Source of the DNA: Rubrivivax sp. | GTDB lineage: Bacteria > Pseudomonadota > Gammaproteobacteria > Burkholderiales > Burkholderiaceae_C | Length of the DNA stretch: 39,475 nt | Reading direction: 5' to 3' | Assembly: GCA_035633375.1 (NCBI GenBank) | Contig: DASQFA010000797.1 | Location: 1-39,475 of the forward strand | In this document: positions 756 through 17,137 of the stretch, in pieces | Layout of the letters: each line of letters starts with the position of its first letter | Position numbering within the stretch: position 1 is the stretch's first letter | Notes under the pieces: model-generated | The model's database searches: none | Seen by the model: the letters and a program-made list of their open reading frames with translations, nothing else | What the model was told of the DNA's origin: nothing | Position numbers and translations under genes: made by a program

Positions 756-793
756 CCACCGTCGGCCGCGCAAACCCTGCTGGAGAACGCACC

Positions 794-1882
794 ATGACCG
801 CGAATGCCCCCACCGCGCAATTGCACGCCCTGGGCCAGAGCCTGTGGCTCGACAACATCACGCGCGCGCTGCTGGCCAGCGGCACCTTGCAGCGCTACAT
901 CGATGAATGGTCGGTGACCGGGCTGACCTCCAACCCGACCATATTCGACCACGCCCTCAAGGGCAGCACCGACTACGACGCCGACATCCGTGCCAAGCTC
1001 GCGCAGGGCAAGTCGGGCGAGGCGCTGTTCTTCGAGCTGGCCTTGCACGACATCACGCGGGCGGCCGACCTGTTCCGCCCGGTGCACGAGCGCACGCGCG
1101 GCGTCGACGGCTGGGTTTCGCTCGAGGTGTCGCCGCTGCTGGCCTACGACACGCAGACCACGCTGCAGGTGGCGCGCGAGCTGCACGCGCGCGCCGCACG
1201 GCCCAACCTGTTCATCAAGATCCCGGGCACCCGCGAAGGTCTGCCGGCCATCGAGGAGGCCATCTTCGCCGGCGTGCCGGTGAACGTGACGCTGCTTTTT
1301 TCCACCGCGCAGTACCAGGCCGCTGCCGAGGCCTGGCTGCGCGGCATCGAAAGGCGCCTCGCCGCCGGCCTGCCGCCCGACGTGGGCTCGGTGGCCTCGC
1401 TGTTCGTCAGCCGCTGGGACGTGGCGGTGGTGGGCAAGGTGCCCGACGCGCTGCAGATGAAGCTCGGCGTGGCCATCGGCCAGCAGGCGTATCGCGCCTA
1501 CGGCGACTTCCTCGCGTCGCCGCGCTGCCGCCGCGTGATGAACGAGGGCGCCGTGCCGCAGCGCCTGCTGCTGGCCAGCACCGGCACCAAGGACCCCAAG
1601 GCCTCGGACACGCTCTATGTCGAGGCGCTGGCCGCACCCTTCACCGTCAACACCATGCCCGAAGGCACGCTCGAGGCCTTTGCCGGTCACGGCCGCGTCG
1701 GCGCGCCCACGCCGGCCGACGGCGGCGATTGCGAGGCCGTGCTGGCGCGCTTTCGCCAGGCCGGCATCGACGTGGATGCGCTGGCGGCGCGCCTGCAAAG
1801 CGAAGGCGCCGCCTCGTTCGTGGCCTCGTGGCACGAACTGATGCGCGTGATCGCGTCGAAGAGCGCGTCGCTAGTGGCCTGA
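794..1882 (+). CDS. tal: Transaldolase
   Basis: QSLWLDNI, GLTSNPTIF, VSLEVSP, FIKIPGT (Schiff-base Lys), VNVTLLF, ASTGTK, TVNTMP motifs; GGAGA RBS. Confidence 0.95.
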   Translation: MTANAPTAQLHALGQSLWLDNITRALLASGTLQRYIDEWSVTGLTSNPTIFDHALKGSTDYDADIRAKLAQGKSGEALFFELALHDITRAADLFRPVHERTRGVDGWVSLEVSPLLAYDTQTTLQVARELHARAARPNLFIKIPGTREGLPAIEEAIFAGVPVNVTLLFSTAQYQAAAEAWLRGIERRLAAGLPPDVGSVASLFVSRWDVAVVGKVPDALQMKLGVAIGQQAYRAYGDFLASPRCRRVMNEGAVPQRLLLASTGTKDPKASDTLYVEALAAPFTVNTMPEGTLEAFAGHGRVGAPTPADGGDCEAVLARFRQAGIDVDALAARLQSEGAASFVASWHELMRVIASKSASLVA

Positions 1883-1898
1883 CACGCAGGAACGACCC

Positions 1899-2094
1899 AT
1901 GAGAGTCCTGGTCGTCGATGCCGGCGGCAGCCACGTGAACATCCTCGTCAGCGGCCAGGCCGAGCCGCGGCGCGAATGCCTTCATCGGCGGCTTCCGCCT
2001 GTGGGATCAACCTGCCCGCGCGGCGCACCGGGCCGCACCACGCACACCGGCGTCCGCGCCCCGGCGTGCCGCCGGCGCGCGCCGCACAGCCTAG
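1899..2094 (+). pseudogene. Internally deleted ROK-family / polyphosphate glucokinase-like gene
   Basis: N-terminus [16 protein letters not shown] (DxGG sugar-kinase phosphate loop) is joined out of frame at ~1973 to [11 protein letters not shown]..., stop TAG at 2092-2094. That peptide resembles the C-terminus of this kinase family as I recall it. Confidence 0.7.
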
Positions 2095-2137
2095 GCTGCG
2101 CAGTGCGCCCGACCTTTCATCGATCGACGGAGTAAAC

Positions 2138-3772
2138 ATGACACCCTCTGCACACACCACCTCCCTGCCCGCCTGGAAGTCGCTCCAGGCCCATGCCAGC
2201 ACGCTGCAGACCCTGCATCTGCGCGAGATGTTCGCCGCCGACGCGCAGCGCGGCGAGCGCATGGCGCTCGATGCCGCCGGCATCTACCTCGACTATTCGA
2301 AGAACCGCATCACCGAGGAGACGCTGCGACTGCTGCAGACGCTGGCCACGCAAGCGGGGCTGCGCGAGCGCATCGACGCGATGTTCAGCGGGCAACGCAT
2401 CAACGTCACCGAGGACCGCGCCGTGCTGCACGTGGCGCTGCGTGCGCCGCGCGGCGCGAGCATCGTGCTCGACGGGGTGAACGTCGTGCCCGCGGTGCAC
2501 GAGGTGCTGGACCGCATGTCGGCCTTCACCGAGCGGGTGCGCAACGGTTCCTGGCTCGGACACACCGGCAAACGCATGCGCAACGTGGTCAACATCGGCA
2601 TCGGCGGCTCCGACCTGGGCCCGGTGATGGCCTACGAAGCGCTGCGCCACTACAGCGCGCGCGACATGGTGTTCCGCTTCGTCTCCAACGTCGACGGCAC
2701 CGACTTCGCCGAGGCCACGCGCGACCTGGACGCCGCCGAGACGCTGTTCATCGTGGCGTCGAAGACCTTCACCACGCAGGAAACCATGACCAATGCACAC
2801 AGCGCGCGCGACTGGCTGCTGGCCGCGCTCGGTGGCGATTCCAGCGCGGTGGCGCGGCACTTCGTGGCGCTGTCGACGAATGCCGCGGCGGTGTCGCAGT
2901 TCGGCATTTCTACCGACAACATGTTCGGCTTCTGGGACTGGGTGGGCGGGCGCTACTCGATGGTCTCGGCCATCGGCCTGTCGACCATGCTGGCCATCGG
3001 GCCGGAGCGCTTCGGCGAGCTGCTGGCCGGCTTCCACGAGATGGACGAACACTTCCGCCAGGCCCCTTTCGAGCGCAACCTGCCGGTGCTGATGGGCCTG
3101 ATCGGCCTTTGGCACAACGACTTCCTCGGCGCGCAGACGGTGGCCGTGCTGCCCTACGAGCAATACCTGAAGCGCTTCCCGGCCTACCTGCAGCAACTGA
3201 CGATGGAAAGCAACGGCAAGCAGGTGACGTTGGATGGCACGCCGGTGGGCTGCGACACCAGCGCGGTCTATTGGGGTGAACCGGGCACGAACGGCCAGCA
3301 TTCCTTCTATCAGCTGATTCACCAGGGCACGCGGCTGATCCCCTGCGACTTCATCGGTTTCGGACAATCGCTCAACCCGCTGGGCGAGCATCACGATCAG
3401 CTGATGGCCAACGTCTTCGCGCAGGGCGAGGCGCTGGCCTTCGGCAAGACGGCCGACCAGCTGAAGGCCGAGGGCACGCCGCAGTGGCTGGTGCCGCACC
3501 GCAGCTTCGCAGGCAACCGGCCGTCCAACACGCTGCTGCTGGAGCGGCTGACTCCGGCCGCGCTGGGCAAGCTGGTGGCGCTGTACGAGCACATCGTCTT
3601 CACGCAGGGCGCGATCTGGCAGGTCAACCCCTTCGACCAGTGGGGCGTCGAGCTCGGCAAGGTGCTGGCGAAGAAAATCACGCCCGAGCTGTCCGGCGGC
3701 GGGGCAGCGCCGGCGCACGACAGTTCGACGAACGCGCTGATCCGGCGCTATCGTCAGTTGAAAGGCGTCTGA
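2138..3772 (+). CDS. pgi: Glucose-6-phosphate isomerase
   Basis: [65 protein letters not shown]; start placed at ATG 2138 behind GGAG (ORF track extends to 1976). Confidence 0.97.
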
Positions 3773-3829
3773 AGGCAGGCCATCGCACGGCCGCCGCAGC
3801 GCCTGGCGCGCTTTCCAAAGGAACTCCTC

Positions 3830-4840
3830 ATGCAACTCGGAATGATCGGCCTCGGCCGCATGGGCGCGAACATGGTGCGCCGCCTGATGAAGGGGGGTCA
3901 CGAGTGCGTGGTCTTCGACAGGTCGCCGGCCGCCGTGGCCGGCATGGCCAACGAACACGCCATTGGCGCGGTCTCGCTGGCCGACCTGGCGGGCAAATTG
4001 GCCAGGCCGCGCGCGCTGTGGCTGATGGTGCCCGCCGCAATGGTGGACGCCACCATGGCCGACCTGCTGCCGCACCTGGAAGCCGGCGACACGCTCATCG
4101 ACGGCGGCAATTCGTACTACGTCGACGACATCCGCCGCGCCAAGGCGCTGGCGGCGCAGCGCATCGACTATGTCGACGTGGGCACCAGCGGCGGCGTGTG
4201 GGGCCTGGAGCGCGGCTACTGCATGATGATCGGCGGGCCGAAGGCCACGGTGCAGCGCCTCGACCCGATCTTCAGGACACTCGCGCCCGGCATCGGCAGC
4301 ATCGAGCGCACGCCGGGGCGCGACAGCTCGGCCGGCACGGCCGAAGAAGGCTACCTGCACTGCGGCGAGAGCGGGGCCGGGCACTTCGTGAAGATGGTGC
4401 ACAACGGCATCGAGTACGGCCTCATGGCCGCGTATGCCGAGGGCATGGGCATCCTGAAAAGCGCCAACGTCGGCAAGCTCCGCCACGACGTCGATGCCGA
4501 GACCACGCCACTGCGCGACCCCGAGCACTACCAGTACGACCTGAACCTGCCCGACATCGCCGAGGTCTGGCGCCGCGGCAGCGTCATCGCGTCCTGGCTG
4601 CTCGACCTGACCGCCACCGCTTTGATCGAAGACCCGGCGCTGACCAAGTTTGCCGGTCGCGTGTCCGATTCGGGCGAAGGCCGCTGGACCATCAAGGCCG
4701 CCATCGACGAGGCCGTGCCGGCGCCGGTGCTGACGAGCGCGCTGAATACACGCTTCAGCTCGCGCGGCGAGGCCGACTTCCAGAACAAGCTGCTGTCGGC
4801 GATGCGCTTCCAGTTCGGCGGCCACCACGAGAAGAAGTAG
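3830..4840 (+). CDS. gnd: 6-phosphogluconate dehydrogenase, decarboxylating (short YqeC/GntZ type)
   Basis: GLGRMG Rossmann motif, [44 protein letters not shown]; 336 aa. Confidence 0.95.
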
Positions 4841-4959
4841 TCCCGCGCCCTGACACGACGGGCCAGCCGCCGAAAGCCCGCCCGCCGATCCCCGCATCCG
4901 AGCCCAGCGCGTGCGTTGATGCACGCACACACCCGCACGCACAGCAAGGAGCCTGCCCG

Positions 4960-6339
4960 ATGAGCCGACCTCCGGATGCCCCGGCCGATGCGCTGGTCTT
5001 CTTCGGCGCCACCGGCGACCTGGCCTACAAGAAGATCTTCCCGTCGCTGCAGGCGATGATCCGCCGCGGCCACCTGAAGGTGCCGGTGATCGGCGTGGCC
5101 AAGGCGGGCTGGAACCTGGACCAGTTCCGCGCACGCGCCCGTGACAGCCTTGAAAAACATGGCGGCCTGGACCCGGCAGCCTTCGAGAAGCTGCTTGGCC
5201 TGCTGCGTTATGTCGACGGCGACTATGCCGATGCGGCGACCTTCACCGCGCTGCGCCAGCAGCTGGGCCACGCCAAGGCGCCGGCGCACTACATGGCGAT
5301 TCCGCCCGCGCTCTTCGCGCAGGTCGTGGAGCAGCTGGCGGCCACCGGCTGCACGCGCGGGGCACGCATCATCGTCGAAAAGCCCTTCGGGCGCGACCGG
5401 GCCTCGGCACTGACGCTGAACCAGGTCTTGCTGAAGACCTTCGACGAGACACGCATCTTCCGCATCGACCATTACCTGGGCAAGGGCCCGGTGCACAACA
5501 TGCTGCACTTCCGCTTTGCCAACGCGCTGCTCGAGCCCTTCTGGAACCGCGACCATGTGCAAAGCGTGCAGATCACTATGGCCGAGGACTTTGGCGTGCA
5601 GGGCCGCGGCGCCTTCTACGACGCCATCGGCACGACCCGCGACGTGGTGCAGAACCACATGTTCCAGTTGCTCAGCAACCTGGCCATGGAGCCACCTGCG
5701 CGCACCGACAGCGAGTCGATCCGCGACGAGAAGGTCAAGGTGCTGAAGGCCATGCGCACGCTGGGCAGCGACGACATCGTGCGCGGCCAGTTCGTCGGCT
5801 ACCAGGGCGAGCCGGGTGTGGCCGCCGATTCGAGCACCGAGACCTTCTGTGCCGTGCGCCTGTTCATCGACTCATGGCGCTGGCAGGACGTGCCCTTCCA
5901 CATCCGCGCCGGCAAGCGCCTGCCCGTCACCTGCACCGAGGTGCTGGTGCGGCTGCGCCGCCCGCCGTCGATGTTTTCGGTGCACAACGACACGCCCAAC
6001 CATGTGCGCTTTCGCATCAGCCCGGACATCCTCATCGCACTGGGCATGAACGAGGTGTCGCCGCTTGACGAGAGCCTGAGCCAGCCGACCGAACTGATGG
6101 CCAGCCGCCTGCCCGGCGCGCGCGAGATGGACGCCTACGAACGCGTGCTCGGCGACGCCCTGCGCGGCGATGCGACGCTGTTCGCGCGCGAGGACTATGT
6201 CGAAGAAGCCTGGCGCATTGTCGACCCGGTGCTCGGTGCGCGCACCCCCGTGCATCCCTACCAGCCCGGCACCTGGGGGCCGGGGGAGGTGCAGGCAGTG
6301 TCGCCTGCGGGCGGCTGGTACAACCCTCTGCTGGCCTGA
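4960..6339 (+). CDS. zwf: Glucose-6-phosphate 1-dehydrogenase
   Basis: [44 protein letters not shown]; start at ATG 4960 after AAGGAG. Confidence 0.95.
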
Positions 6340-6551
6340 CCCGCTGCCACCCGCCATGCAGATATCGGCGTCGCGCGCGGTTCAGCACCGGGTAGCTCAG
6401 GGTCATGCCCCGATGGCACATGTACGGCGAGGTCAGCGCCACATCGGCGGCGCTGACCTGCAGCACCGTATCACCGCATCACCCGGCACCCGCGAAGCCG
6501 TGTGGCCGTCGGCGCCCAGGCCCGGGTGCCGTGAGACCGAGACCCAGCGCA

Positions 6552-9281
6552 ATGTCCACGAATGAAACGATGCCGACGACGGCCGAAGACCAACGCCTGG
6601 CCGACGCGCGAGAAGGCAAGGTGCCCTGGCGCCGCTGGGGCCCTTACGTGAGCGAGCGCCAGTGGGGCACGGTGCGCGAGGACTACAGTGCCGAAGGCAA
6701 CGCCTGGGGCGACCTGAGCCATGAGCAGGCGCGCTCACGCGCCTACCGCTGGGGCGAAGACGGCATCGCCGGCATCAGCGACGAACATCAACGGCTGTGT
6801 TTTGCGCTGACGCTTTGGAACGGCGCCGACCCGATCCTGAAGGAGCGGCTGTTCGGCCTGACCGGACCCGAGGGCAACCATGGCGAGGACGTGAAGGAGT
6901 ACTACTTCCACCTCGACAACCTGCCCAGCCACGCGTACATGAAGTACCTGTACAAGTACCCGCAGCAGGCCTATCCCTACGCGCAGCTGGTGCAGGAGAA
7001 CCGCAAGCGCGGCCGGCTGGAGCCCGAGTACGAACTGCTCGACACCGGCATCTTCGACGAGGACCGCTATTTCGACGTCTTCATCGAGTACGCCAAGGAC
7101 GGACCGAACGATTGGCTGGTGCGCATCAACGCCATCAACCGCGGCCCGATGGCGGCCACGCTGCACCTGCTGCCCACGCTGTGGTTTCGCAACGACTGGA
7201 GCTGGACGCCCAGGCATGAGCGGCCGCGGATCGCGTTCGACGCCGCCCGGCCGGGTGTGCTGGCCGCCACGCACCCCACGCTCGAGCCCTATTGGCTGCA
7301 TTTCGAGAGCCCCGCACAGGTGCTGTTCACCGAAAACGAGAGCAACCGCGCGCGGCTGTGGGGCGAAGCCGCTGGGGGTTTTGCCAAGGACGGCTTCCAT
7401 GACTTCCTGGTGCATGGCCAGGCTGACGCAGTCAACCCCGCACGCACCGGCAGCAAGGCCGCGCCGCACTATCGGCGCGAACTGGCGCCCGGCGAAAGCT
7501 GGGTCGTCAAGCTGCGCCTGGGAGCCGAGGGCACACTGCAGGCACCGCTGGGCGCAACTTTCGACGCGCTGTTCGCGCAGCGCATCGCCGAGGCCGATGC
7601 CTTCTACCGACGGATCACGCCCTTCGAGTTGTCTGACGACTTGCGCAACGTGCAGCGCCAGGCCTTCGCCGGGCTGCTGTGGAGCAAGCAGTACTACCAC
7701 TACTTCGTCGACCGCTGGATCAAGGGCGACCCGGCGGGCCCCACGCCACCCGACGCGCGCAAGCAAGGGCGCAACCACGGCTGGTGGCACCTGGACGCTG
7801 CCGACGTGCTGTCGATGCCCGACAAATGGGAGTACCCCTGGTTCGCGGCCTGGGACATGGCCTTCCACTGCGTGGCCTTCGCGCTGATCGACCCCGATTT
7901 CGCCAAGCAGCAGTTGATCCTGCTGACGCGCGAGTGGTACATGCACCCGAACGGCCAGATTCCGGCCTACGAGTGGAACTTCAGTGACGTGAATCCGCCG
8001 GTGCATGCCTGGGCGGCGATGCGCATCTGCCAGATCGAGATGAAGATGAGCGGGCGCATGGACCGCCTGTTCCTGGAACGCATCTTCCAGAAGTTACTGA
8101 TCAACTTCACCTGGTGGGTGAACCGCAAGGACAGCGAAGGCAACAACCTGTTCGAGGGCGGCTTTCTCGGGCTGGACAACGTCAGTGCCGTCGACCGCAG
8201 TGCCGTTCTGCCCTCGGGCGGGCGCCTGGAGCAGGCCGACGGCACAAGCTGGATGGCCACCTACTGCCTGAACATGCTGGCCATCGCGCTGGAGCTGGCG
8301 AACGGCGATGCGGCCTACGAAGACGTGGCGACGAAGTTCTTCGAACACTTCGTCTACATCGGCGAGGCCGTGAACCGCGTCGGCGAGCAGGGCCGCGGCC
8401 TGTGGGACGAGACGCTGGGCTTCTACTTCGACCAGCTAAAGCTGCCCGACGGGCACAGCTGCCGTATCGAGGCCTTCACCATCGCCGGGTTGATCCCGCT
8501 GTTTGCCATCGCCGTGGGTGACCGCGATTCGTTCGATGGCTTCCGCGATTTCCGCAAGCGTTTCACCTGGTTCGCGCAGAACCGGCCCGAGCTGCTGGGC
8601 AACCTGGCCGACATGCGGCATCGTGGCGTGGACGCGCGCCTGCGCCTGGCGCTGGTCGATTCACACAGGTTGGGGCTGATCCTCGAACGCGTGCTCGACC
8701 CGGCGCACCTGCTCAGCCCGCACGGCGTGCGCTCGGTGTCCAAGCGGCACGCACACGAGCCCTTCGTGCTGCAACTGCAGGGGCGCCAGTTCAGGCTCGA
8801 CTACGAGCCGGCCGAATCCAGGGGCAGCATGTTCGGCGGCAACTCCAACTGGCGCGGGCCGGTGTGGTTCCCGCTGAACTACCTGCTCATCGAGGCGCTG
8901 CAAAGGCACGACTACTTCCTGGGCGAGACCTTCAAGGTGCCCAGCGGCGAAGGCCTGGGCGAAAGCTCCACGCTGTGGCAGGTGACGAGCGACCTGTCGC
9001 TGCGGCTGATCACGCTGTTCACGCGGGATGCGCAGGGGCGGCGCCCGGCCCATGGCCGTCATGAGAAGTTCCAGACCGATCCGCACTGGAAGGACCTGAT
9101 CCTCTTCTACGAGTATTTCGACGGCGACTCCGGCGCCGGCCTGGGTGCCAGCCACCAGACTGGCTGGACCGCTCTGGTGGCCAAACTGATCCAGCAGCAC
9201 GCCGAGTACGCGCTGCAAAAGCGGCAGCACGAGGTGGTGACCGGCTTCGGCGTCAAGCTGCCACCTGACAAGGCAAGCTGA
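6552..9281 (+). CDS. GH63/MGH1-like glycoside hydrolase (glucosidase)
   Basis: WGPYVSERQWGTVREDYS, SMPDKWEYPWFAAWD, PAYEWNFSDVNPP, GGNSNWRGPVW, EYFDGDSGAGLGASHQTGWT; start uncertain (6552 or 6570). Confidence 0.85.
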   Translation: MSTNETMPTTAEDQRLADAREGKVPWRRWGPYVSERQWGTVREDYSAEGNAWGDLSHEQARSRAYRWGEDGIAGISDEHQRLCFALTLWNGADPILKERLFGLTGPEGNHGEDVKEYYFHLDNLPSHAYMKYLYKYPQQAYPYAQLVQENRKRGRLEPEYELLDTGIFDEDRYFDVFIEYAKDGPNDWLVRINAINRGPMAATLHLLPTLWFRNDWSWTPRHERPRIAFDAARPGVLAATHPTLEPYWLHFESPAQVLFTENESNRARLWGEAAGGFAKDGFHDFLVHGQADAVNPARTGSKAAPHYRRELAPGESWVVKLRLGAEGTLQAPLGATFDALFAQRIAEADAFYRRITPFELSDDLRNVQRQAFAGLLWSKQYYHYFVDRWIKGDPAGPTPPDARKQGRNHGWWHLDAADVLSMPDKWEYPWFAAWDMAFHCVAFALIDPDFAKQQLILLTREWYMHPNGQIPAYEWNFSDVNPPVHAWAAMRICQIEMKMSGRMDRLFLERIFQKLLINFTWWVNRKDSEGNNLFEGGFLGLDNVSAVDRSAVLPSGGRLEQADGTSWMATYCLNMLAIALELANGDAAYEDVATKFFEHFVYIGEAVNRVGEQGRGLWDETLGFYFDQLKLPDGHSCRIEAFTIAGLIPLFAIAVGDRDSFDGFRDFRKRFTWFAQNRPELLGNLADMRHRGVDARLRLALVDSHRLGLILERVLDPAHLLSPHGVRSVSKRHAHEPFVLQLQGRQFRLDYEPAESRGSMFGGNSNWRGPVWFPLNYLLIEALQRHDYFLGETFKVPSGEGLGESSTLWQVTSDLSLRLITLFTRDAQGRRPAHGRHEKFQTDPHWKDLILFYEYFDGDSGAGLGASHQTGWTALVAKLIQQHAEYALQKRQHEVVTGFGVKLPPDKAS

Positions 9282-9599
9282 GGGCCGCGCTGCCAAGCGG
9301 CGGCCCTGGCACGCGGCCGTTTTCGGCGCCGCTGGGCACATGGCAAGTTTTTGCCGCCGTGCCATGGCTGCATTTCGAGGCTGCGCCACGACTGCGCAGC
9401 TGCACACTCGAACCGGCGCATGCGTTATCGAGCCTCTGTGCCTGCCGAATGCCAGCCGCCGATACGAGCCATCTCGCTGAATCCGTTGATATCAGGCTGA
9501 CCGCGCCGCTGTCGGCCTCGTCTGCCTGGAGACTCGCTCGACCGAGCAGACACGGCGTGATCACGCGCTGCAACACCTGCGCCACGGCCGTCACCAGCT

Positions 9600-10120
9600 T
9601 GGGCTGTGAAGCCAGCACCAGCTGAGCATGGACACGGTCGGTCCAGTGGGCAGACTGTGGCTGGCGAAGGCGGGATCGGCAACCGGATGACCCAAATGAG
9701 CACCCCGCCACACACCGAGAGTTTGCGCAGGATCAAGTCTAGAGAATCCAAGTCTGCGCAAACTAAGGTGTTCGTGACCCACAACAGCGCGTTGCCAGCG
9801 CAGATGGTCTGGGCGTTCCAAGACAGTCGTAGGCGGGTGGACATGTTTTGCAATCGCATCAAGCAACACCTGCGGATCAAGTAACGTCTGCGCAGTACCG
9901 AGAACGCCGTGGAGACACAAATTTGATGCCAGGTGGCCAACGGGCTGTTCACCGCCATCATGGTCGGGAAGGAGCTTCGAATCGAAGCCACGATGGACAC
10001 AGGTGGATAGATCTTGTCGGTATGCGTTTCTAGAAGGCCCTGGTTCATGCGCCCGCCCGGGCACCGTGTGCACAACCGAACAGCCAGACGACGCTCACCA
10101 CGCGAATCCATTCAGCGTTT
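9600..10120 (+). mobile_element. Degraded IS4-family DDE transposase remnant (C-terminal part)
   Basis: One frame reads SLRRIKSRE..VFVTHNSALPA..SRRRVDMFCNRIKQHLRIK*RLRSTENAVETQI*...*ILSV, matching the IS4 pattern LRRI..LVFLTNN..YK.RWQVELFFKWIKQHLRIK.F.GTSENAVKTQIW. In-frame stops at 9882, 9924 and 10008; boundaries approximate. Confidence 0.8.
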
Positions 10121-10364
10121 AGCAGGGATCCTCAAGATGAAACCATCCACATCATCCGCGCAACCGAGACGATCTGAGTGATGGCCACCGTGGCCCTATT
10201 CGTTTCCATCTGCAAACTGTTCAGGCGTGGACTGCATTGGCGCGCCTTCGTGAACAGCAATGAGCGGCGCGGCTTGCCCGCCGATCGTCATGCGGCGACC
10301 GCCGCACAAGAACAAGATACAGCAGGCCCTTGGATATTTTGGACCTCCTGGGAGTTAAAGCTTC

Positions 10365-12260
10365 ATGGTTGAAGTGAACTTGGGTTTCAAGATCCCGCTG
10401 TCGGTGCAGCACATTCTTGAAGCGTGCCCGAAGTACACCGTGGCCAAAAATTGGCAGCAGTTGTACGAACTGGCGACGCGTGACGCCGTGAATGGCATAC
10501 ACGAGGTCGCCTACGAAGTGCCTAGCCGGGGTCGGGTGCTGGAGGCCACGGTGTGCCGTGTCAAGAACGGCATCGCGGCCAATTACGTCGAGCCCTACAT
10601 GCGCCGCCGCGATCCAGACTGCATGGTCATTGCCGACCACCAGCCCACCGACAAACCGCGCTTCGAGGACAGGTACGGCAAGCCCTTTTCTTCGCTGCGC
10701 GAGGAAACCTTCGACTGGCTCAAGACCCAGGAGTTGGCGCTGTTCCCCTTTATCGCCGGAGTCGCCGGCATGGGTGCCGATGCCTTGGTGGTTGCCCCGG
10801 CCAACGCCGGCTTCTTCGCGCTCGGGCTGGCCTTGCTGCAGGGAATCGTCGACGAAAAGGATTTGTCGGCGGACTTCGACCCGAAGGCCGTGATCTTCGT
10901 TGCACCACCCTTTAGGCACACCCACTTCAAGGGCAAACAGATGGTGGTGCACAACCGCCGTTCCGGCCGGCATGAGTTGTTCAGCTACAACCTCTATCCC
11001 GGCCCGAGTGCCAAGAAGGGCATCTACGGCGTCCTGCTCGCGCTGGGTGAACGTGAGCATTGGTTGACCGCACACTGCGCGACAGTCATCGTCACCACAC
11101 CGTATGGCAGCAAGCTGTGCATCATGCACGAAGGTGCCAGTGGTGGTGGCAAGAGCGAAATGCTCGAGCAGGTGCATCGTCAGAAGGACGGCGGACTGCT
11201 GCTCGGCACCAATGTGCTGTCGGGTGAACGCCGCACTCTGGTACTGCCCCACAACTGTGAGTTGCGGGCCGTGACCGACGACATGGCCTTGTGCCATCCG
11301 TCGCTCGGCAAGAACGACGGGCGTCTGGCGCTGATCGATGCCGAACAAGGCTGGTTCGTGCGCGTCAATCACATCACCCACTACGGGACCGACCCCCACC
11401 TCGAGAAGATGACCATCCATCCCACCGAGCCCATGCTGTTTCTCAACATCGACGCCCACCCGGACAGCACGGCTCTGATCTGGGAGCACATCGAAGATGA
11501 ACCCGGCAAACCATGCCCGAATCCGCGCGTGGTCGTCCCCCGAAAAGCCGTGCCCGGCGTCCACAACGGCGCAGTCAGCGTAGACGTTCGCAGCTTCGGG
11601 GTGCGATGCCCGCCGAACGCGCAAGAGCTTCCGACCTACGGCATCGTTGGTCTGTTCCATCTGCTGCCGCCGGCGCTGGCCTGGCTGTGGCGGCTGGTGG
11701 CGCCGCGTGGTCACGCCAATCCCAGTATCGTGGCTACCGAAGGCATGACTTCGGAAGGGGTCGGGTCGTACTGGCCTTTCGCCACAGGGCGCATGGTCGA
11801 CCAAGCCAACTTGCTTCTCGATCAGATCGTCTCGACCCCGCGCATGAAGTACATCTTGTGCCCCAACCAGCACGTCGGTGCGTGGGAGACAGGCTTCATG
11901 CCGCAGTGGATCGCGCGCGAGTTTCTTTCCCGGCGAGGTGGCGCGCACTTCTCGAAAGAGCAGGTCACTGCGTCGCGGTGCCCGCTTCTCGGCTACGCGA
12001 TGAAGAGCGTGATCATTGAAGGGCAGACCATACCGGGGATCTTTCTGCGAGTCGAGATGCAGCCCGAGGTCGGAATTGCTGCCTATGACCAGGGTGCCCT
12101 GCAACTGACCGAGTTCTTTCACAACGAGTTGGCCCAGTTCCTGAGGGAGGCCGACCTGAATCCCCAGGGCCGAAAAATCATTGAGTGTTGCCTGGCCGGC
12201 GGTTCTGTGGACGACTACGTGGCGCTGCTCCCGATGACCGTTTTGGAAATGGACGACTAA
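10365..12260 (+). CDS. DUF4914-like protein with PEP carboxykinase-type catalytic motifs
   Basis: 631 aa with GGAG RBS; ordered motifs YPGPSAKKG, TAHCA, EGASGGGKSEM, VTDDMA, AEQGWF, PNPRV. Confidence 0.8.
   Translation: MVEVNLGFKIPLSVQHILEACPKYTVAKNWQQLYELATRDAVNGIHEVAYEVPSRGRVLEATVCRVKNGIAANYVEPYMRRRDPDCMVIADHQPTDKPRFEDRYGKPFSSLREETFDWLKTQELALFPFIAGVAGMGADALVVAPANAGFFALGLALLQGIVDEKDLSADFDPKAVIFVAPPFRHTHFKGKQMVVHNRRSGRHELFSYNLYPGPSAKKGIYGVLLALGEREHWLTAHCATVIVTTPYGSKLCIMHEGASGGGKSEMLEQVHRQKDGGLLLGTNVLSGERRTLVLPHNCELRAVTDDMALCHPSLGKNDGRLALIDAEQGWFVRVNHITHYGTDPHLEKMTIHPTEPMLFLNIDAHPDSTALIWEHIEDEPGKPCPNPRVVVPRKAVPGVHNGAVSVDVRSFGVRCPPNAQELPTYGIVGLFHLLPPALAWLWRLVAPRGHANPSIVATEGMTSEGVGSYWPFATGRMVDQANLLLDQIVSTPRMKYILCPNQHVGAWETGFMPQWIAREFLSRRGGAHFSKEQVTASRCPLLGYAMKSVIIEGQTIPGIFLRVEMQPEVGIAAYDQGALQLTEFFHNELAQFLREADLNPQGRKIIECCLAGGSVDDYVALLPMTVLEMDD
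10378..10426 (+). repeat. 49-bp direct repeat, copy 1 (inside the 5' end of the DUF4914-like gene)
   Basis: acttgggtttcaagatcccgctgtcggtgcagcacattcttgaagcgtg; 46/49 identical to 16546-16594. Confidence 0.9.
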
Positions 12261-12549
12261 TGGAGCAAGCCAAGTCCTTCATGCGCATGGAGCCATTTCA
12301 ATCTTTGCGCCACTTGCTACAAGCACCGGTCCCGTACCGATTGCGAAGCGCCGATGCGCGAGCGTCTGCATCACGCAGCCAGACCGAGGGAGGCGGCGAT
12401 GTTGCTCGATCACTACGACGCTTGCCTGAGGTTGCATTCAGTACCGACATCGCCATAATGAAAATCTCTCAGCCCAACGCGGCATATTTTCTAGGTTGTT
12501 GCCGCAGCGGTCGGTCCGATCCTTTCCAATGTACCCGAGGGCGACGCTG

Positions 12550-14076
12550 ATGACCCGCACGATTGAAGTCGTTGATGTAATTCTGAGAGACGCGCACCAA
12601 AGTCTCCTGGCCACACGGATGGCGATGGAAGACATGGTGCCGGCGTGCGAGGATCTCGACAACGCTGGCTACTGGGCGCTTGAGTGCTGGGGCGGCGCCA
12701 CTTTCGATGCGTGCATCCGCTACCTCAACGAGGATCCGTGGGAGCGGCTGCGCCAGTTCAAGAAGTTGCTGCCCAAAACTCCGCTGCAGATGCTGCTGCG
12801 CGGGCAAAACCTGCTTGGCTACCGCCACTACGAAGATGGCGTGGTCGAACGCTTCGTTGACAAGGCGGCCGAAAACGGCATGGACGTGTTCCGGGTGTTC
12901 GACGCACTCAACGACTTGCGAAATCTGAAGACCGCCCTCGCTGCCGTCAAGAAGACCGGCAAGCATGCCCAGGGCACGATCTGCTACACGGTCAGCCCGG
13001 TGCATACCAACGCCGCGTTCATCGAAATGGCGCAGCGCCTCAAGGACATGGGCGCCGACTCGATTTGCCTGAAGGACATGGCGGCGCTGCTAAGGCCGCA
13101 GGCGGCCTACGACATCGTCAAGGGCATCAAGGCCAAATGCGGCGACGACACTCTGGTCCACCTGCATTGCCATGCAACGACCGGCGTGACCTTGGTGTCG
13201 CTGATGAAGGCCATCGAAGCCGGCTGCGACATCGTCGACACCTCGATCAGTTCGCTGTCGCTCGGATCGGGTCACAACCCGACCGAGGCCCTGATGGAAA
13301 TGCTGGAAGACACCGGCTGCCAGACGCGCCTGGACAGGGATCGGGTTCTCAAGGTCCGGAACCACTTCGCGCACATCCGCAACCGCTACCGCGAGTTCAT
13401 GGGTGAGTACACCGGAGTCGATACCGAGATCTTCAAGAGCCAGATCCCCGGCGGGATGATTTCCAACATGGAGAGCCAGCTCAAGGGACAAGGTGCTGCC
13501 GACCGCCTGCAGGAAGTACTCGAGGAAGTGCCGCGCGTACGGCGCGACTCGGGCTACCCGCCGCTGGTGACACCCTCGAGCCAGATCGTCGGAAGCCAGG
13601 CGGTCTTCAACGTGCTGATGGGCCAATACAAGGCGATGACCGGCGAATTTGCCGACCTGATGCTCGGGTACTATGGCAGCATGCTGGGCGAGAAGAACCC
13701 CGAGGTGCTGGCCAAGGCCGAAGCGCACGCCAAGAAGCCGCCGATCACCGGCCGCCCGGCCGATCTGCTGAAGCCGGAATGGGATGCACTCACGGCGAGC
13801 GCCATCGCGATGGAGGGCTGCAACGGCAGCGCCGAGGACGTGCTGACCGCTGCAATGTTTCCTCAGGTAGCGCCCAAGTTCTTCAAGACGAGATCCCAGG
13901 GACCCTTGAATCTGGGCAAGGATCCGATCGCTGTCGTCCCTCAACCCGCGGCCGCGCCCAAGGGCGAGGTCAAGCCGGCCGCCGTGGGCAACGGTGCGGA
14001 CCCCATGTCACCTGTCACCTATGCCGTCTCGCTCCACGGGCAGGAGCACAAGGTCACGGTGGCTCGCGCGCCCTGA
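12550..14076 (+). CDS. Methylmalonyl-CoA carboxytransferase (transcarboxylase) 5S subunit; pyruvate carboxyltransferase domain
   Basis: LRDAHQSLLATRMAMEDM, ECWGGATFD, LNEDPWERL, MLLRGQNLLGYRHY, CLKDMA, HCHATTG, PPLVTPSSQIVG. No biotinyl domain; C-terminal PVTYAVSLHGQEHKVTV resembles the Propionibacterium 5S tail. Confidence 0.88.
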   Translation: MTRTIEVVDVILRDAHQSLLATRMAMEDMVPACEDLDNAGYWALECWGGATFDACIRYLNEDPWERLRQFKKLLPKTPLQMLLRGQNLLGYRHYEDGVVERFVDKAAENGMDVFRVFDALNDLRNLKTALAAVKKTGKHAQGTICYTVSPVHTNAAFIEMAQRLKDMGADSICLKDMAALLRPQAAYDIVKGIKAKCGDDTLVHLHCHATTGVTLVSLMKAIEAGCDIVDTSISSLSLGSGHNPTEALMEMLEDTGCQTRLDRDRVLKVRNHFAHIRNRYREFMGEYTGVDTEIFKSQIPGGMISNMESQLKGQGAADRLQEVLEEVPRVRRDSGYPPLVTPSSQIVGSQAVFNVLMGQYKAMTGEFADLMLGYYGSMLGEKNPEVLAKAEAHAKKPPITGRPADLLKPEWDALTASAIAMEGCNGSAEDVLTAAMFPQVAPKFFKTRSQGPLNLGKDPIAVVPQPAAAPKGEVKPAAVGNGADPMSPVTYAVSLHGQEHKVTVARAP

Positions 14077-14142
14077 ACACTTCGCCGGCACCGAGAGCGC
14101 TCACCGCTTCGATGTTAGAGCAGCACTTAGTAGAGGAACACG

Positions 14143-15717
14143 ATGCCTTCAAAAGCTACCGCAGCCGCGCCCCGCACCATTGAGGAGAAGCTCGCAGCGC
14201 TGGCGCTTGAGCGTACCCGGCTCGAACAAGGCGGCGGGACGGCACAGATCGACAAGCAACACGCGGCGGGCAAGCTGACCGCACGCGAACGCGTCGCCAA
14301 GCTTGCCGATGCCGGCAGTTTTCAGGAGATCGGTCTCTTTGCGCGCCACCGTGCCACCCAGTTCGGTATGGCGGACAAGGATCAGCCGGCGGACGGCGTC
14401 GTCACCGGCTGTGCCAAGGTCGATGGCCGCACTGTCCACCTTGCCAGCCAGGACTTCACGGTGGCTGGCGGATCCGCCGGTGAACTGCACAGCATCAAGG
14501 TCGCCAAGATGCTCGAGCTGTCGCTGAAGACTGGCACGCCGTTCGTGCTCATCAACGATTCCGGCGGTGCGCGCGTGCAGGAGGGCATCGACAGCCTGTC
14601 CGGCTATGGCAAGGTCTTCTATCAAAACGTCATGTTGTCGGGGTCGGTGCCGCAGATCTCGCTGATCTGCGGTCCGTGCGCGGGCGGCGCGGCCTATAGC
14701 CCGGCGTTGACCGACTTCATCATCCAGACGCGGCGCGCCCAGATGTTCATCACCGGGCCGCAAGTGATCAAGCAAGTCACCGGCGAGGTCGTCAGCGCCG
14801 AGGATCTGGGTGGGCCGATGGCCCAGATGAACCGCTCTGGCGTGGTCCACCTGATCGCCGAAGACGACGAAGACGCCCTCTACCAGTGTCGGCGCCTGCT
14901 CAGCTTCCTGCCCGCCAACAACCTGGAAGACCCGCCGCGCCTGCCCGTCGAAGAACCGCCCGAGTCTGATCCGGCGCTCAACCAGGCCATTCCGGTGGAC
15001 CCGAAGCAAGGCTACGACGTGCGCACCATCCTGACGCGAATCCTCGATGAGCAGGATTTCATGGAGATCCAGTCCGGTTTCGCACCCAACATCGTGATCG
15101 GGTTCGGGCGGATCATGGGCCGCACGGTGGGCCTCGTCGCCAACAACCCGGCGTCCATGGCCGGCGCACTCGACATCGACGCGTCGGACAAGGCGGCACG
15201 TTTCGTGCGTTTCTGCAATTGCTTCAACATCCCGCTCGTCACGTTCGTCGATGTTCCGGGCTTCCGGCCCGGCGTCGAGCAAGAGTACGGCGGCATCATT
15301 CGCCATGGCGCGAAGATGTTGTTCGCCTATTCGGCGACCACCGTGCCCAAGATCACGGTGATCCTGCGCAAGGCCTATGGCGGCGCTTATCTGGCGATGT
15401 GCGGGCGCGACCTCGGTGCCGACCGGGTGGTCGCCTGGCCGACCGCGGAGGTGGCGGTGATGGGCGCGGAGGGGGCGGCCGAGATCGTCTTCAGGCGCGA
15501 AATCGAAGGCGCCGATGACAAGGCAGGCAAGCGCAAGGAGATGATCGACCTGTACCGTGATGCCTTCGCCAACCCCTATGTGGCAGCGGGGCGTGGTCTG
15601 GTCGATGACGTGATCGAGCCGGCCGAGACGCGGCGCTACCTGGCGCTGGCGCTCGACAGCCTGCAAAGCAAGCGCGAGGCCCGCCCGCCCAAGAAGCACG
15701 GGCTGATCCCGCTGTGA
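14143..15717 (+). CDS. Acyl-CoA carboxyltransferase (transcarboxylase 12S / PCC-beta family)
   Basis: GKLTARER, ADGVVTG, QDFTVAGGS, DSGGARVQEG, GPCAGGAAYSPALTD, VDVPGF, RHGAK, RKAYGGAY, KKHGLIPL. Confidence 0.9.
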   Translation: MPSKATAAAPRTIEEKLAALALERTRLEQGGGTAQIDKQHAAGKLTARERVAKLADAGSFQEIGLFARHRATQFGMADKDQPADGVVTGCAKVDGRTVHLASQDFTVAGGSAGELHSIKVAKMLELSLKTGTPFVLINDSGGARVQEGIDSLSGYGKVFYQNVMLSGSVPQISLICGPCAGGAAYSPALTDFIIQTRRAQMFITGPQVIKQVTGEVVSAEDLGGPMAQMNRSGVVHLIAEDDEDALYQCRRLLSFLPANNLEDPPRLPVEEPPESDPALNQAIPVDPKQGYDVRTILTRILDEQDFMEIQSGFAPNIVIGFGRIMGRTVGLVANNPASMAGALDIDASDKAARFVRFCNCFNIPLVTFVDVPGFRPGVEQEYGGIIRHGAKMLFAYSATTVPKITVILRKAYGGAYLAMCGRDLGADRVVAWPTAEVAVMGAEGAAEIVFRREIEGADDKAGKRKEMIDLYRDAFANPYVAAGRGLVDDVIEPAETRRYLALALDSLQSKREARPPKKHGLIPL

Positions 15718-15737
15718 GCGGCGCTGGCGAGACTCCC

Positions 15738-16052
15738 ATGCCGGCGTTGACCCTCGATGACGTGATGGCCGAACTCGCGGCCCTGCGCCAGGAGACGCGG
15801 GTACAGATCGCCGAACTGAGCGCCCAGGTGGCAGCGCTGCAGGTGCTGGTGGACCGGCATGCGCCCGAGGCGATCACCCCGGAAGAGCTGGTGATGATGG
15901 CTGCAGCCGTGACCTCGTATCTGGGCGTTCGAGTGCGTATCCGCTCGGCGCGTCGAGTCGAGGGGCTGGCCAACAGCGGCGGCGCCTGGGCGCAACACGG
16001 CCGGGTCTTTGTCCAGGCCGCCGCCCACGCCATGCGGCGCGTATCCCGCTGA
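15738..16052 (+). CDS. Small accessory protein of the carboxyltransferase operon (epsilon/delta-like)
   Basis: Heptad-like N-terminus, EELVMMAAAVTSYLG, AWAQHGR; lies between 12S and the biotin carrier; alternative GTG start at 15714 overlaps the 12S stop. Confidence 0.7.
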   Translation: MPALTLDDVMAELAALRQETRVQIAELSAQVAALQVLVDRHAPEAITPEELVMMAAAVTSYLGVRVRIRSARRVEGLANSGGAWAQHGRVFVQAAAHAMRRVSR

Positions 16053-16095
16053 AGGCCGCCCTGCCGGCCTCATCAACCAACGAGGAGCCCACGCG

Positions 16096-16506
16096 TTGAA
16101 ACTGCAAATCGGCATTGACGGCAAGACCTACGAGATGGAGGTCGAGATCCTCCAGGAAGACAAGCCCCAGCGCGCATTCGGCTACGTGCCGCCCTATGCG
16201 CCGCCGACCACGTTACGCGGCGTTACCGCGGCCGAGCAGGCACCTCCGGCCGGATTGCCCAAAACTGGAGGGGCCGAGCCCCCGGTGGAGGAGAACCTGG
16301 TGGTGCGCTGCCCGGTGGCCGGCGTCGTCGTCCGCATCGCTGTCAAGCCCGGACAGGAACTCGCCACCGACGACGTCATCATGGTGCTGGAAGCGATGAA
16401 GATGGAGACCAGCGTCACCGCCTCTCACCCCGGCAAAGTGAAGGCCATCCGCGTTTCCGAAGGCGAAGGCGTCAAGGTCGGCCAGATCTTGATTGATTTC
16501 GATTGA
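16096..16506 (+). CDS. Biotin carboxyl carrier protein (transcarboxylase 1.3S-like)
   Basis: TTG start after GAGGAG; MKLQIGIDGKTYEMEVEI N-terminus, Pro/Ala-rich linker, biotinylation motif VLEAMKME. Confidence 0.92.
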   Translation: MKLQIGIDGKTYEMEVEILQEDKPQRAFGYVPPYAPPTTLRGVTAAEQAPPAGLPKTGGAEPPVEENLVVRCPVAGVVVRIAVKPGQELATDDVIMVLEAMKMETSVTASHPGKVKAIRVSEGEGVKVGQILIDFD

Positions 16507-16545
16507 CCGTTTACTGATTCAGCAGCGATATCGTCCTCGAACCGG

Positions 16546-16594
16546 ACTTGGGTTTCAAGAAGCCGCTGTCGGTGCAGCACAGTCTTGAAGCGTG
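16546..16594 (+). repeat. 49-bp direct repeat, copy 2 (degenerate duplicate of the DUF4914 gene start)
   Basis: acttgggtttcaagaagccgctgtcggtgcagcacagtcttgaagcgtg; weaker colinear similarity continues to acacgaggt at 16664 (matches 10499). Confidence 0.9.
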
Positions 16595-16756
16595 GTCATG
16601 GCGCGCAACAAGATTGCACTGGTTGGGGGCCTTGACCTGTTGGAGTGATGTGCGCCGAGGCGCACACGAGGTGAACGTGGCGACGACGCTACACTTCGCG
16701 CTCCCGATGTCCGGCATGGCCGGTACGTCCACCCCCACGGCCACCGGATCCACACC

Positions 16757-17137
16757 ATGCTTCGCTGTGCACTCACCCTGGCCCTGGCCGGCGCGCTGGC
16801 CCTGCCGACCGCCGCCCAGGTGCAACGCAACTTCACGTCGAAGGCCCTGCGCGGCGAAGTCGTCTTCGGCACGCCGCCCGAGCTCAAGCTGAACGGCAAG
16901 CCGGCACGGCTGGCGCCAGGAGCACGCATCCGCGACCAGAACAACCTGCTGCTCATGTCGGGCGCGCTGGTCGGCGGCAAGGCGATGGTGAACTACACCA
17001 CCGAGCTGGAAGGCATGCTGCTGGAGGTGTGGATCCTGAGCCCGGCCGAAGCCGCGCGCAAGCCCTGGCCGACGACCGAGAAGGAAGCGCAGACCTGGCA
17101 GTTCAACGTCGATGCCCAGACATGGACCAAGCCATGA
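16757..17137 (+). CDS. Hypothetical exported protein upstream of miaB
   Basis: 126 aa with a signal peptide (…ALALPTAA-Q); host-like codon usage; ATGA overlap with the miaB start. Confidence 0.8.

What the first reader, a model, noticed from the sequence alone, without database searches (positions are those of the whole stretch)
10365..16506. Candidate new system: PEPCK-fold enzyme plus Propionibacterium-type transcarboxylase in a betaproteobacterium
Seen: co-oriented DUF4914 - 5S - 12S - small ORF - 1.3S, with no biotin carboxylase (so not a self-contained pyruvate or propionyl-CoA carboxylase) and no membrane OadB/MmdB subunit (so not a Na+ pump). Established: 5S+12S+1.3S form transcarboxylase (EC 2.1.3.1; methylmalonyl-CoA + pyruvate = propionyl-CoA + OAA) of the Wood-Werkman cycle, best known in propionibacteria, where a PPi-PEPCK supplies OAA. 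Inference: the module forms a carboxyl relay, CO2+PEP to OAA to acyl-CoA carboxylation without ATP-dependent biotin carboxylase. It could serve low-energy propionate (or acetyl-CoA) assimilation or, in reverse, propionate formation for redox balance in anoxic phases. It appears horizontally acquired (IS relic, terminal repeat, visibly lower GC).
Basis: partly seen in the sequence, partly recalled or inferred. Interest (0 to 1): 0.85.

Follow-up and report, generated by a model that had tools for sequence, protein, structure and literature searches.

The report
Transcarboxylase operon with imported PEPCK-like neighbour
A Rubrivivax-like freshwater-sediment bacterium carries a four-gene operon of the known propionibacterial type, predicted to move CO2 between methylmalonyl-CoA and pyruvate without ATP, and the unstudied PEPCK-like gene in front of it likely arrived from a different donor and was found beside such an operon only in this one small clade.

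Summary
The genes are real and the assembly holds: contigs from three studies bridge the DUF4914-5S junction. 5S, 12S, small ORF and 1.3S are the known four-gene transcarboxylase operon (mtcABCD-type). The 5S passes the NCBIfam cut-off, and the best PDB hits of 5S and 12S are the Propionibacterium subunits. DUF4914 has the PEPCK fold and residues, as this scan found before on other DNA.

The proposed conserved system fails its own test. 0 of 80 DUF4914 loci hold the operon and 0 of 78 5S loci hold DUF4914. Only 2 of 80 DUF4914 genomes have a 5S, and those are unlinked. The usual neighbours of 5S are epimerase and mutase. DUF4914 came from a Propionivibrio/Accumulibacter-like donor (85% DNA, with donor yccA relic and leader); the operon's nearest fetched kin are 75-81%. 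The pairing seems shared only within a ~90%-identity clade, and one member apparently lost DUF4914. The host already has two GTP-PEPCKs, PEPC, mutase, fumarate reductase and two Na+-pump decarboxylase operons.

Side result: the small ORF is a conserved, unanchored homologue of decarboxylase delta/gamma subunits, likely a fourth transcarboxylase subunit. Verdict: new member of a known kind, interest 0.35.

The parts
9690..9884 (+). IS4-family transposase relic (decayed; further IS-like matches to other contigs of the genome over about 9490-10053)
   Evidence: tblastn hits to IS4 transposases; blastn/tblastx to C166, C554
10137..10265 (+). decayed 3' end of yccA (Bax1-I), the gene preceding DUF4914 in Propionivibrio/Accumulibacter loci L001, L002, L004
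   Evidence: 74-76% DNA match, alignment, family of the donor gene
10255..10364 (+). DUF4914 leader shared with Rhodocyclaceae-type loci, including two (L006, L008) with a different upstream gene; two small hairpins, folding no better than shuffles here
   Evidence: no Rfam match
10365..12260 (+). DUF4914, PEPCK-fold protein, 631 aa, under purifying selection
12547..14076 (+). transcarboxylase 5S (pyruvate/oxaloacetate carboxyltransferase, no biotin domain), 509 aa
   Evidence: NF008984 over cut-off; top PDB 1rqb 713 bits against 505 for the next family
14143..15717 (+). transcarboxylase 12S (acyl-CoA carboxyltransferase), 524 aa
   Evidence: top PDB 1on3 689 bits, next 655; own clade in tree
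15714..16052 (+). conserved small protein (104-112 aa): coiled coil, then a helix and W-x3-GR motif; unanchored homologue of decarboxylase delta/gamma subunits; likely equivalent of PFREUD_18850 / mtcC
   Evidence: PMC2909200
16096..16506 (+). 1.3S biotin carboxyl carrier, TTG start, 136 aa, EAMKM
10371..10426 (+). direct repeat copy 1 (codons 3-21 of DUF4914)
16539..16594 (+). direct repeat copy 2 (89%; core 49 nt 94% to own copy, 82% to Accumulibacter/Propionivibrio copies), 32 nt after the 1.3S stop

Best explanation
Four genes at 12547-16506 form a Propionibacterium-type operon (5S, 12S, small protein, biotin carrier) that likely encodes a soluble, ATP-free methylmalonyl-CoA:pyruvate transcarboxylase, while the PEPCK-fold gene DUF4914 in front of it likely arrived from a different donor and is a clade-limited neighbour rather than a standard part of the enzyme system. 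Inferred mechanism: 12S moves the carboxyl of methylmalonyl-CoA onto the biotin of 1.3S, 5S moves it onto pyruvate, giving propionyl-CoA and oxaloacetate, reversibly. The small protein likely acts as a tether like the delta/gamma subunits it resembles. With the host's mutase, a probable epimerase and fumarate reductase, this would serve a succinate-propionate (Wood-Werkman-type) route in anoxic sediment. DUF4914 likely interconverts PEP and oxaloacetate through the common pool, beside two GTP-PEPCKs and PEPC; its phosphoryl donor is unresolved.
For: Shown: 5S over its equivalog cut-off. Best solved relatives are the P. freudenreichii 5S and 12S. 5S and 12S of these operons each form a clade apart from OadA/PycB and MmdA/PccB (29 of 29, support 0.91; 22 of 22, support 0.92). 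Of 78 metagenome 5S loci, 63 hold 12S, 51 the carrier, 49 the small ORF; 32 hold epimerase, 25 mutase, 17 MeaB, and 0 hold OadB, biotin carboxylase, GTP-PEPCK or PEPC. DUF4914 is in 0 of these 78 (49 had 2.5 kb or more upstream), and the operon is in 0 of 80 DUF4914 loci (63 had 2.5 kb or more downstream). 2 of 80 DUF4914 genomes have a 5S over cut-off, outside the DUF4914 locus. Three congeners have the operon without a DUF4914 match (73-79% complete). The DUF4914 segment is 82-86% identical to Propionivibrio/Accumulibacter DNA and carries their yccA relic and leader; the operon's best fetched kin are 75-81%. Host mutase, epimerase-like gene, frdAB and birA. The four-CDS operon is in print (PMC2909200, PMC7344785; passages read).
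Against: The pairing is not unique to this genome. Logan 5S P0571 (93.5%) reads through from the last 14 codons of DUF4914. P0557 (DUF4914, 91.6%) and P0569 (5S, 92.3%) both come from 5,032-bp JGI contigs, probably the same one. These DUF4914s form one clade with the window's (support 0.999), and dN/dS against Propionivibrio/Accumulibacter copies is 0.10-0.14, so the neighbour has been kept, not merely dropped in. The repeat places a DUF4914 start directly behind 1.3S too. No terminator-like site was found in the 286-bp spacer, so co-transcription is possible. Sampling was partial: the best 80 of 286 DUF4914 loci, and 78 loci from 18 of 64 parts of the metagenome collection. The 5S tree clade is partly by construction. 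The epimerase hit is under its cut-off. The genome has distal beta subunits and biotin carboxylases. No activity was measured.
Confidence: 0.72

Rival explanations
1. Clade-specific carboxyl relay: the five genes are one transcript. DUF4914 carboxylates PEP to oxaloacetate and the transcarboxylase passes that carboxyl to propionyl-CoA (or acetyl-CoA), saving one ATP against pyruvate kinase plus propionyl-CoA carboxylase when CO2 is high.
For: Co-orientation with no terminator-like site in the spacer. Adjacency apparently kept across about 8% protein divergence. DUF4914 under purifying selection. Its structure ties between the P. freudenreichii PPi-PEPCK (Z 31.5, 578 aligned, rmsd 3.2) and ATP-PEPCK (Z 31.4). 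Other DUF4914 loci lie near CO2-related genes: carbonic anhydrase 5, PurK-like 6, Sbt transporter 4 of 80.
Against: No adjacency outside the clade (0 of 80, 0 of 78). One clade member (P0571) kept the 5S with only a 14-codon DUF4914 tail behind unrelated sequence. Oxaloacetate is diffusible, and the host has two GTP-PEPCKs, PEPC and a PCC operon. 5S loci never carried GTP-PEPCK or PEPC.
Confidence: 0.17
2. The proteins work with distal partners: the carrier hands carboxyl to one of the genome's membrane beta subunits (Na+-pumping decarboxylation) or is charged by a distal biotin carboxylase.
For: 4 OadB/MmdB matches and 4 biotin carboxylases in the genome. The order 12S-small-1.3S mirrors mmdA-mmdD-mmdC, and the small ORF is a delta/gamma homologue. 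8 of 41 family members have an N-terminal membrane helix.
Against: The window's small protein has no membrane helix (hydropathy 0.64). The beta genes on C123 and C236/C783 have their own CT, delta and carrier; the third copy (C753) is cut at a contig end and is 98% like C123's. 0 of 78 5S loci hold beta or biotin carboxylase. G034 and G691 have the operon with no beta match (incomplete genomes).
Confidence: 0.07
3. DUF4914 is not a working PEP carboxykinase but acts on another substrate, so it has no metabolic tie to the operon at all.
For: Only 10-16% identity to solved PEPCKs. No hit to the Pfam PEPCK_ATP or PEPCK_GTP families. Kept alongside ordinary PEPCKs. No paper found.
Against: Whole-chain PEPCK fold, and the metal, P-loop and PEP-site residues are kept in 80-83 of 83 full-length rows.
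Confidence: 0.04

Closest known systems
Methylmalonyl-CoA carboxytransferase (transcarboxylase, EC 2.1.3.1) of Propionibacterium freudenreichii / P. acidipropionici; PFREUD_18870-18840, mtcABCD; PDB 1rqb, 1on3
   Same: Stand-alone 5S, 524-aa 12S, small fourth CDS and 1.3S; locus tags run 5S, 12S, small, 1.3S (PMC2909200); no biotin carboxylase or membrane subunit in the operon.
   Different: Betaproteobacterial host, inside an insertion with an IS4 relic; DUF4914 upstream; mutase and epimerase not in the cluster; the host also has two Na+-pump decarboxylase operons and PCC.
PEP carboxykinases: ATP type (1j3b, 1aq2), GTP type, PPi type (8e1u, 6k31)
   Same: DUF4914 model matches all three (Foldseek E about 1e-22; VIA Z 26-31.5), with KK, His, P-loop, DD and NxR motifs kept.
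   Different: 10-16% identity; outside the Pfam ATP and GTP families; 631 aa against about 1,120 for PPi-PEPCK; donor and direction unmeasured.
Na+-pumping methylmalonyl-CoA / malonate / oxaloacetate decarboxylases (MmdA-D-C-B, OadG)
   Same: CT - small subunit - biotin carrier order; the small protein is homologous to the delta/gamma chain.
   Different: No beta subunit in the operon, no membrane anchor on the small protein here, and a second CT (5S) as carboxyl acceptor.
Ca. Kentron (gammaproteobacterium) with MMCT and GDP-PEPCK (PMC6593406, passages read)
   Same: A proteobacterium whose reconstruction lists both a methylmalonyl-CoA carboxytransferase and a PEPCK.
   Different: Ordinary GDP-PEPCK; the passages seen say nothing on gene linkage.

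Membership tests
Transcarboxylase EC 2.1.3.1 | Stand-alone 5S without biotin domain, of the 5S family | tested here: met
   509 aa, NF008984 916 > 827; 1rqb top hit; RDAHQS, KDMA, HxH motifs present (roles recalled)
Transcarboxylase EC 2.1.3.1 | 12S-type acyl-CoA carboxyltransferase | tested here: met
   1on3 top hit, 689 against 655 bits; clade apart from MmdA/PccB
Transcarboxylase EC 2.1.3.1 | Stand-alone 1.3S with biotin lysine; biotin ligase in the genome | tested here: met
   EAMKM Lys102; birA match
Transcarboxylase EC 2.1.3.1 | Four-CDS operon without biotin carboxylase or beta subunit | tested here: met
   PMC2909200
Transcarboxylase EC 2.1.3.1 | ATP-independent carboxyl transfer and 12S/5S/1.3S assembly | not testable with these tools
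PEP carboxykinase superfamily | PEPCK fold | tested here: met
   model pLDDT 93.9; Foldseek probability 1.00; VIA Z 31.5, rmsd 3.2, 578 aligned; profile hit 1j3b E 1.3e-6
PEP carboxykinase superfamily | Catalytic constellation (R80/R82, Y211, K217, K218, H237, P-loop K263-S264, D305-D306, R388) | tested here: met
   80-83 of 83 full-length rows; KK, His and P-loop align to 1j3b; other role labels recalled
ATP- or GTP-PEPCK (PF01293, PF00821) | Sequence family match | tested here: not met
   no hit at E <= 0.001
PPi-PEPCK | PPi-type architecture and donor site | tested here: inconclusive
   ties with the ATP type on Z, but is about half the length
PEP carboxykinase superfamily | PEP + CO2 <-> oxaloacetate activity | not testable with these tools
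   needs assay
Na+-pumping decarboxylase | Beta subunit in the operon and membrane-anchored delta/gamma | tested here: not met
   separate pump operons elsewhere
Conserved DUF4914-transcarboxylase system (proposed) | Recurrent adjacency or co-occurrence across lineages | tested here: not met
   0 of 80, 0 of 78, 2 of 80 genomes unlinked, 0 of 3 operon-bearing congeners; adjacency only in a ~90% clade

The most novel reading that the evidence does not exclude
A clade of freshwater-sediment betaproteobacteria has newly assembled a five-gene CO2 relay. It joins an uncharacterised fourth class of PEP carboxykinase (possibly PPi-using, like the propionibacterial one) with a transcarboxylase held together by an overlooked fourth subunit, a de-anchored Na+-pump delta chain, and carboxylates acyl-CoA without a biotin carboxylase.
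Probability: 0.15. Interest if true: 0.7.

Novelty: new member of a known kind. Interest (0 to 1): 0.35.

Why it matters
The operon extends a textbook propionibacterial enzyme to Rubrivivax-like betaproteobacteria (4 of 222 genomes of the genus, at least two separate acquisitions by the tree) and points to anaerobic propionate metabolism in a widespread sediment lineage. The more general lead is the small gene. It is usually filed as the C-terminal piece of 12S, yet it is a separate, conserved protein related to decarboxylase delta/gamma chains, which makes a fourth-subunit role directly testable and bears on Wood-Werkman engineering. DUF4914 stays an unassayed PEPCK class worth purifying, but this locus adds only weak, clade-limited evidence about its role.

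Tried and rejected
Single-sequence PDB search with DUF4914 found nothing real; the profile was needed. An in-frame extension of the DUF4914 relic beyond the 56-nt repeat looked plausible by eye but was not significant by HMM, so it is not claimed. The sequence ahead of the DUF4914 tail in P0571 looked like an IS91-type transposase end (recalled), but gave only one weak hit to a hypothetical protein and no Pfam hit; unconfirmed. Small-protein monomer model (pLDDT 77.5, pTM 0.41) gave no Foldseek match; the PDB profile search gave only coiled coils. The small-protein family did not match the C123 delta chain (probability 1.8). The atlas search of its C-terminal part gave no usable hit. Complex prediction of 12S with the small protein was not available, so binding is untested. 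RNA runs X19 and X20 hold scattered pieces, also over the IS relic, so they show no transcription. No sigma-70 promoter was found, terminators were at chance level, there was no Rfam family, and the leader folded no better than shuffles (z 0.06). DUF4914 was not found on plasmids. 5S over cut-off was in 0 of 399 class-level genomes; DUF4914 was in 0 of 150 genus and 0 of 400 family genomes. Rows dropped: alignment A2 left out L165 (wrong frame) and L127 (near-duplicate) of the 42 ORFs found in 52 loci; the trees used every third metagenome locus; 95 of 117 DUF4914 neighbours were scanned. Literature: DUF4914, 0 papers; PF16260 with PEPCK, 0; PFREUD_18850, 1. PMC8100219, PMC3199775 and PMC8307300 passages added nothing on linkage. 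Subscription papers were not searchable and no supplements were read.


Full report
Observation. The five co-oriented genes are present: DUF4914 10365-12260, 5S 12547-14076, 12S 14143-15717, small ORF 15714/15738-16052, biotin carrier 16096-16506. The host is Rubrivivax/Burkholderiales-like by the names in the PilC cluster; the assembly is 84.9% complete with 3.8% contamination. The join is not an assembly artefact: contigs of run X1 (11367-13121, possibly the source), X2 (12101-12824) and X6 (12078-12905) bridge the DUF4914-5S spacer, and X1 and X2 bridge the right flank. 18 DNA runs from 9 studies, mostly sediments, hold 0.29-0.94 of the sampled words; six of these were laid.

The operon is a transcarboxylase of the known type. 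5S passes the NCBIfam 5S model (916 against 827 bits) and stays under the OadA cut-offs. Its best solved relative is P. freudenreichii 5S (713 bits; the next family 505). The 12S's best is 1on3 (689; next 655). In trees, 29 of 29 operon 5S and 22 of 22 operon 12S sequences group apart from OadA/PycB and MmdA/PccB (supports 0.91 and 0.92). The 5S clade is partly by construction; the 12S clade is not, since those were picked by adjacency. Of 78 metagenome 5S loci (68-82% identity), 63 hold 12S, 51 the carrier and 49 the small ORF; most misses are contig ends. Their neighbours are epimerase (32), mutase (25), MeaB (17) and Rex (15); none holds OadB, biotin carboxylase, GTP-PEPCK or PEPC. PMC2909200 (passages read) describes the P. 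freudenreichii operon as four CDS, the third being 'the C-terminal part of 12S'. PMC7344785 (passages read) uses mtcABCD. The four-gene unit is therefore known.

The small ORF. It is a family of at least 2,282 proteins, many labelled 12S or large subunit by JGI, with Actinomycetota look-alikes (0.88-0.90, a lead). The family has a coiled coil, an Ala/Pro linker, an AA-x4-LG helix and a W-x3-GR motif. 20 of 41 members weakly match OAD_gamma (best E 1.8e-5). The profile finds the delta chain of the genome's own pump operon on C236 (E 4.3e-5; hhalign probability 79, E 1.5e-5) but not that of C123. 8 of 41 keep an N-terminal membrane helix; the window's protein does not. I infer a tethering subunit. 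Against an absolute need, 2 of 52 loci (L103, L144) have only 80-105 bp between 12S and the carrier match. Binding was not tested.

DUF4914. The model (pLDDT 93.9) matches PEPCKs along the whole chain (Foldseek E about 1e-22). PPi-PEPCK 8e1u (Z 31.5, 578 aligned) and ATP-PEPCK 2pc9 (Z 31.4) tie, ahead of GTP types (about 26). Metal, P-loop and PEP-site residues are kept in 80-83 of 83 full-length rows (role labels partly recalled). It matches neither Pfam PEPCK family, and no paper names it. Earlier notes of this scan reached the same fold on other DNA.

The link test. None of the best 80 (of 286) DUF4914 loci holds the operon. One has an opposite-strand 27% OadA/PycB-like gene with carrier and OadB (L022), and one a 29% CT (L075). 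None of the 78 5S loci holds DUF4914. Genome-wide, 2 of those 80 genomes have a 5S over cut-off, outside the DUF4914 locus. In the genus, 3 of 221 other genomes carry the operon at about 75% DNA identity (two candidates scored per genome), none with DUF4914 (73-79% complete). In two of them a CoA-transferase gene precedes 5S, and they sit on another branch of the tree. DUF4914 is in 0 of 150 genus and 0 of 400 family genomes.

Origin. Congeners have 1.4-1.9 kb between the flanking genes, against 7.5 kb here. An IS4 relic lies at the left. The segment from 10137 to about 12290 is 82-86% identical to Propionivibrio/Accumulibacter DNA and includes the decayed end of their upstream yccA and their leader. 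The protein was clustered with Accumulibacter proteins (88%). Those donor-type loci carry carbonic anhydrase, VTT or Usp genes nearby, not the operon. The operon's nearest fetched DNA is 75-81%, and nearer named proteins are alphaproteobacterial (79-81%). Two sources are thus likely. The 56-nt copy of the DUF4914 start behind 1.3S is closer to the local gene (94%) than to Accumulibacter (82%), a scar of local recombination.

What speaks for the pairing. It is older than this strain. P0571, a 5S at 93.5%, reads through from the last 14 DUF4914 codons, though these follow unrelated sequence, which suggests loss of DUF4914 there. P0557 (DUF4914, 91.6%) and P0569 (5S, 92.3%) share a contig length of 5,032 bp; I could not fetch those contigs. 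These DUF4914s form a clade with the window's (0.999), and dN/dS is 0.10-0.14, as within the donor group (0.11). No terminator-like site lies in the spacer. A clade-limited co-expression is therefore possible.

Host context and mechanism. The genome has mutase with MeaB, PCC and an epimerase-like gene under cut-off on C410, frdAB directly before an mmdA-delta-carrier-beta operon (C123), a second pump operon with a malonate-type beta (C236, C783), two GTP-PEPCKs, PEPC and birA. From established chemistry the operon would catalyse methylmalonyl-CoA + pyruvate = propionyl-CoA + oxaloacetate. I infer use in a succinate-propionate route under anoxia, conserving the carboxyl where the pumps conserve Na+ motive force; the direction is not shown. 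DUF4914 would at most top up oxaloacetate through the common pool. A relay into acyl-CoA is chemically feasible at high CO2 but needs no dedicated partner.

Verdict. New member of a known kind, with a clade-limited, unassayed neighbour. Best explanation 0.72, relay 0.17, interest 0.35.

Noticed in passing
G000 C123:4892-11246 (L263); C236 and C783 (L264, L265); C753:5012-6310: Two Na+-pump decarboxylase operons in a Rubrivivax-like genome: frdAB-mmdA-delta-carrier-beta, and CT-delta-carrier-malonate-type beta whose 3' part lies next to a FadX-like gene (sub-cut-off, probably a CoA-transferase). A further beta copy is 98% like the first.
   Followed up: partly
L136, L143, L145, L147, L158, L161, L163, L178 (small ORF after 12S): 8 of 41 small-protein homologues carry an N-terminal membrane helix with no beta subunit in the locus: possibly membrane-tethered transcarboxylases.
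   Followed up: partly
window 10255-10310; L001, L002, L004, L006, L008 upstream of DUF4914: Leader conserved ahead of DUF4914 despite different upstream genes, with two or three short hairpins; weakened in the window copy; no Rfam match.
   Followed up: partly
P0571 (Logan protein), residues 1-85: 5S read-through containing the DUF4914 tail behind transposase-like sequence (family unconfirmed): a sister strain that seems to have lost DUF4914.
   Followed up: partly
window 16546-16592 and 10378-10424: The repeated stretch folds into a stem-loop in the downstream copy; function unknown.
   Followed up: no
window 9250-16735; L219:16014-17963; L221:12424-13805: The site between the MGH1-like glucosidase and the conserved 126-aa gene before miaB holds inserts of different length in congeners, unrelated to this one: a likely insertion hotspot.
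   Followed up: partly
window 16757-17137: Conserved 126-aa protein without Pfam match, overlapping the miaB start; found in 36 of 40 congeners.
   Followed up: no
window 66-9281: HAD, pgi, gnd, zwf and MGH1-like glucosidase cluster, syntenic in close congeners.
   Followed up: no
control genomes: Thermotoga maritima carries DUF4914: a cultured source for the assay.
   Followed up: no
L180:10137-12245; L267:10924-13032: Acetyl-CoA hydrolase/transferase-GNAT fusion directly upstream of 5S in two congeners.
   Followed up: no
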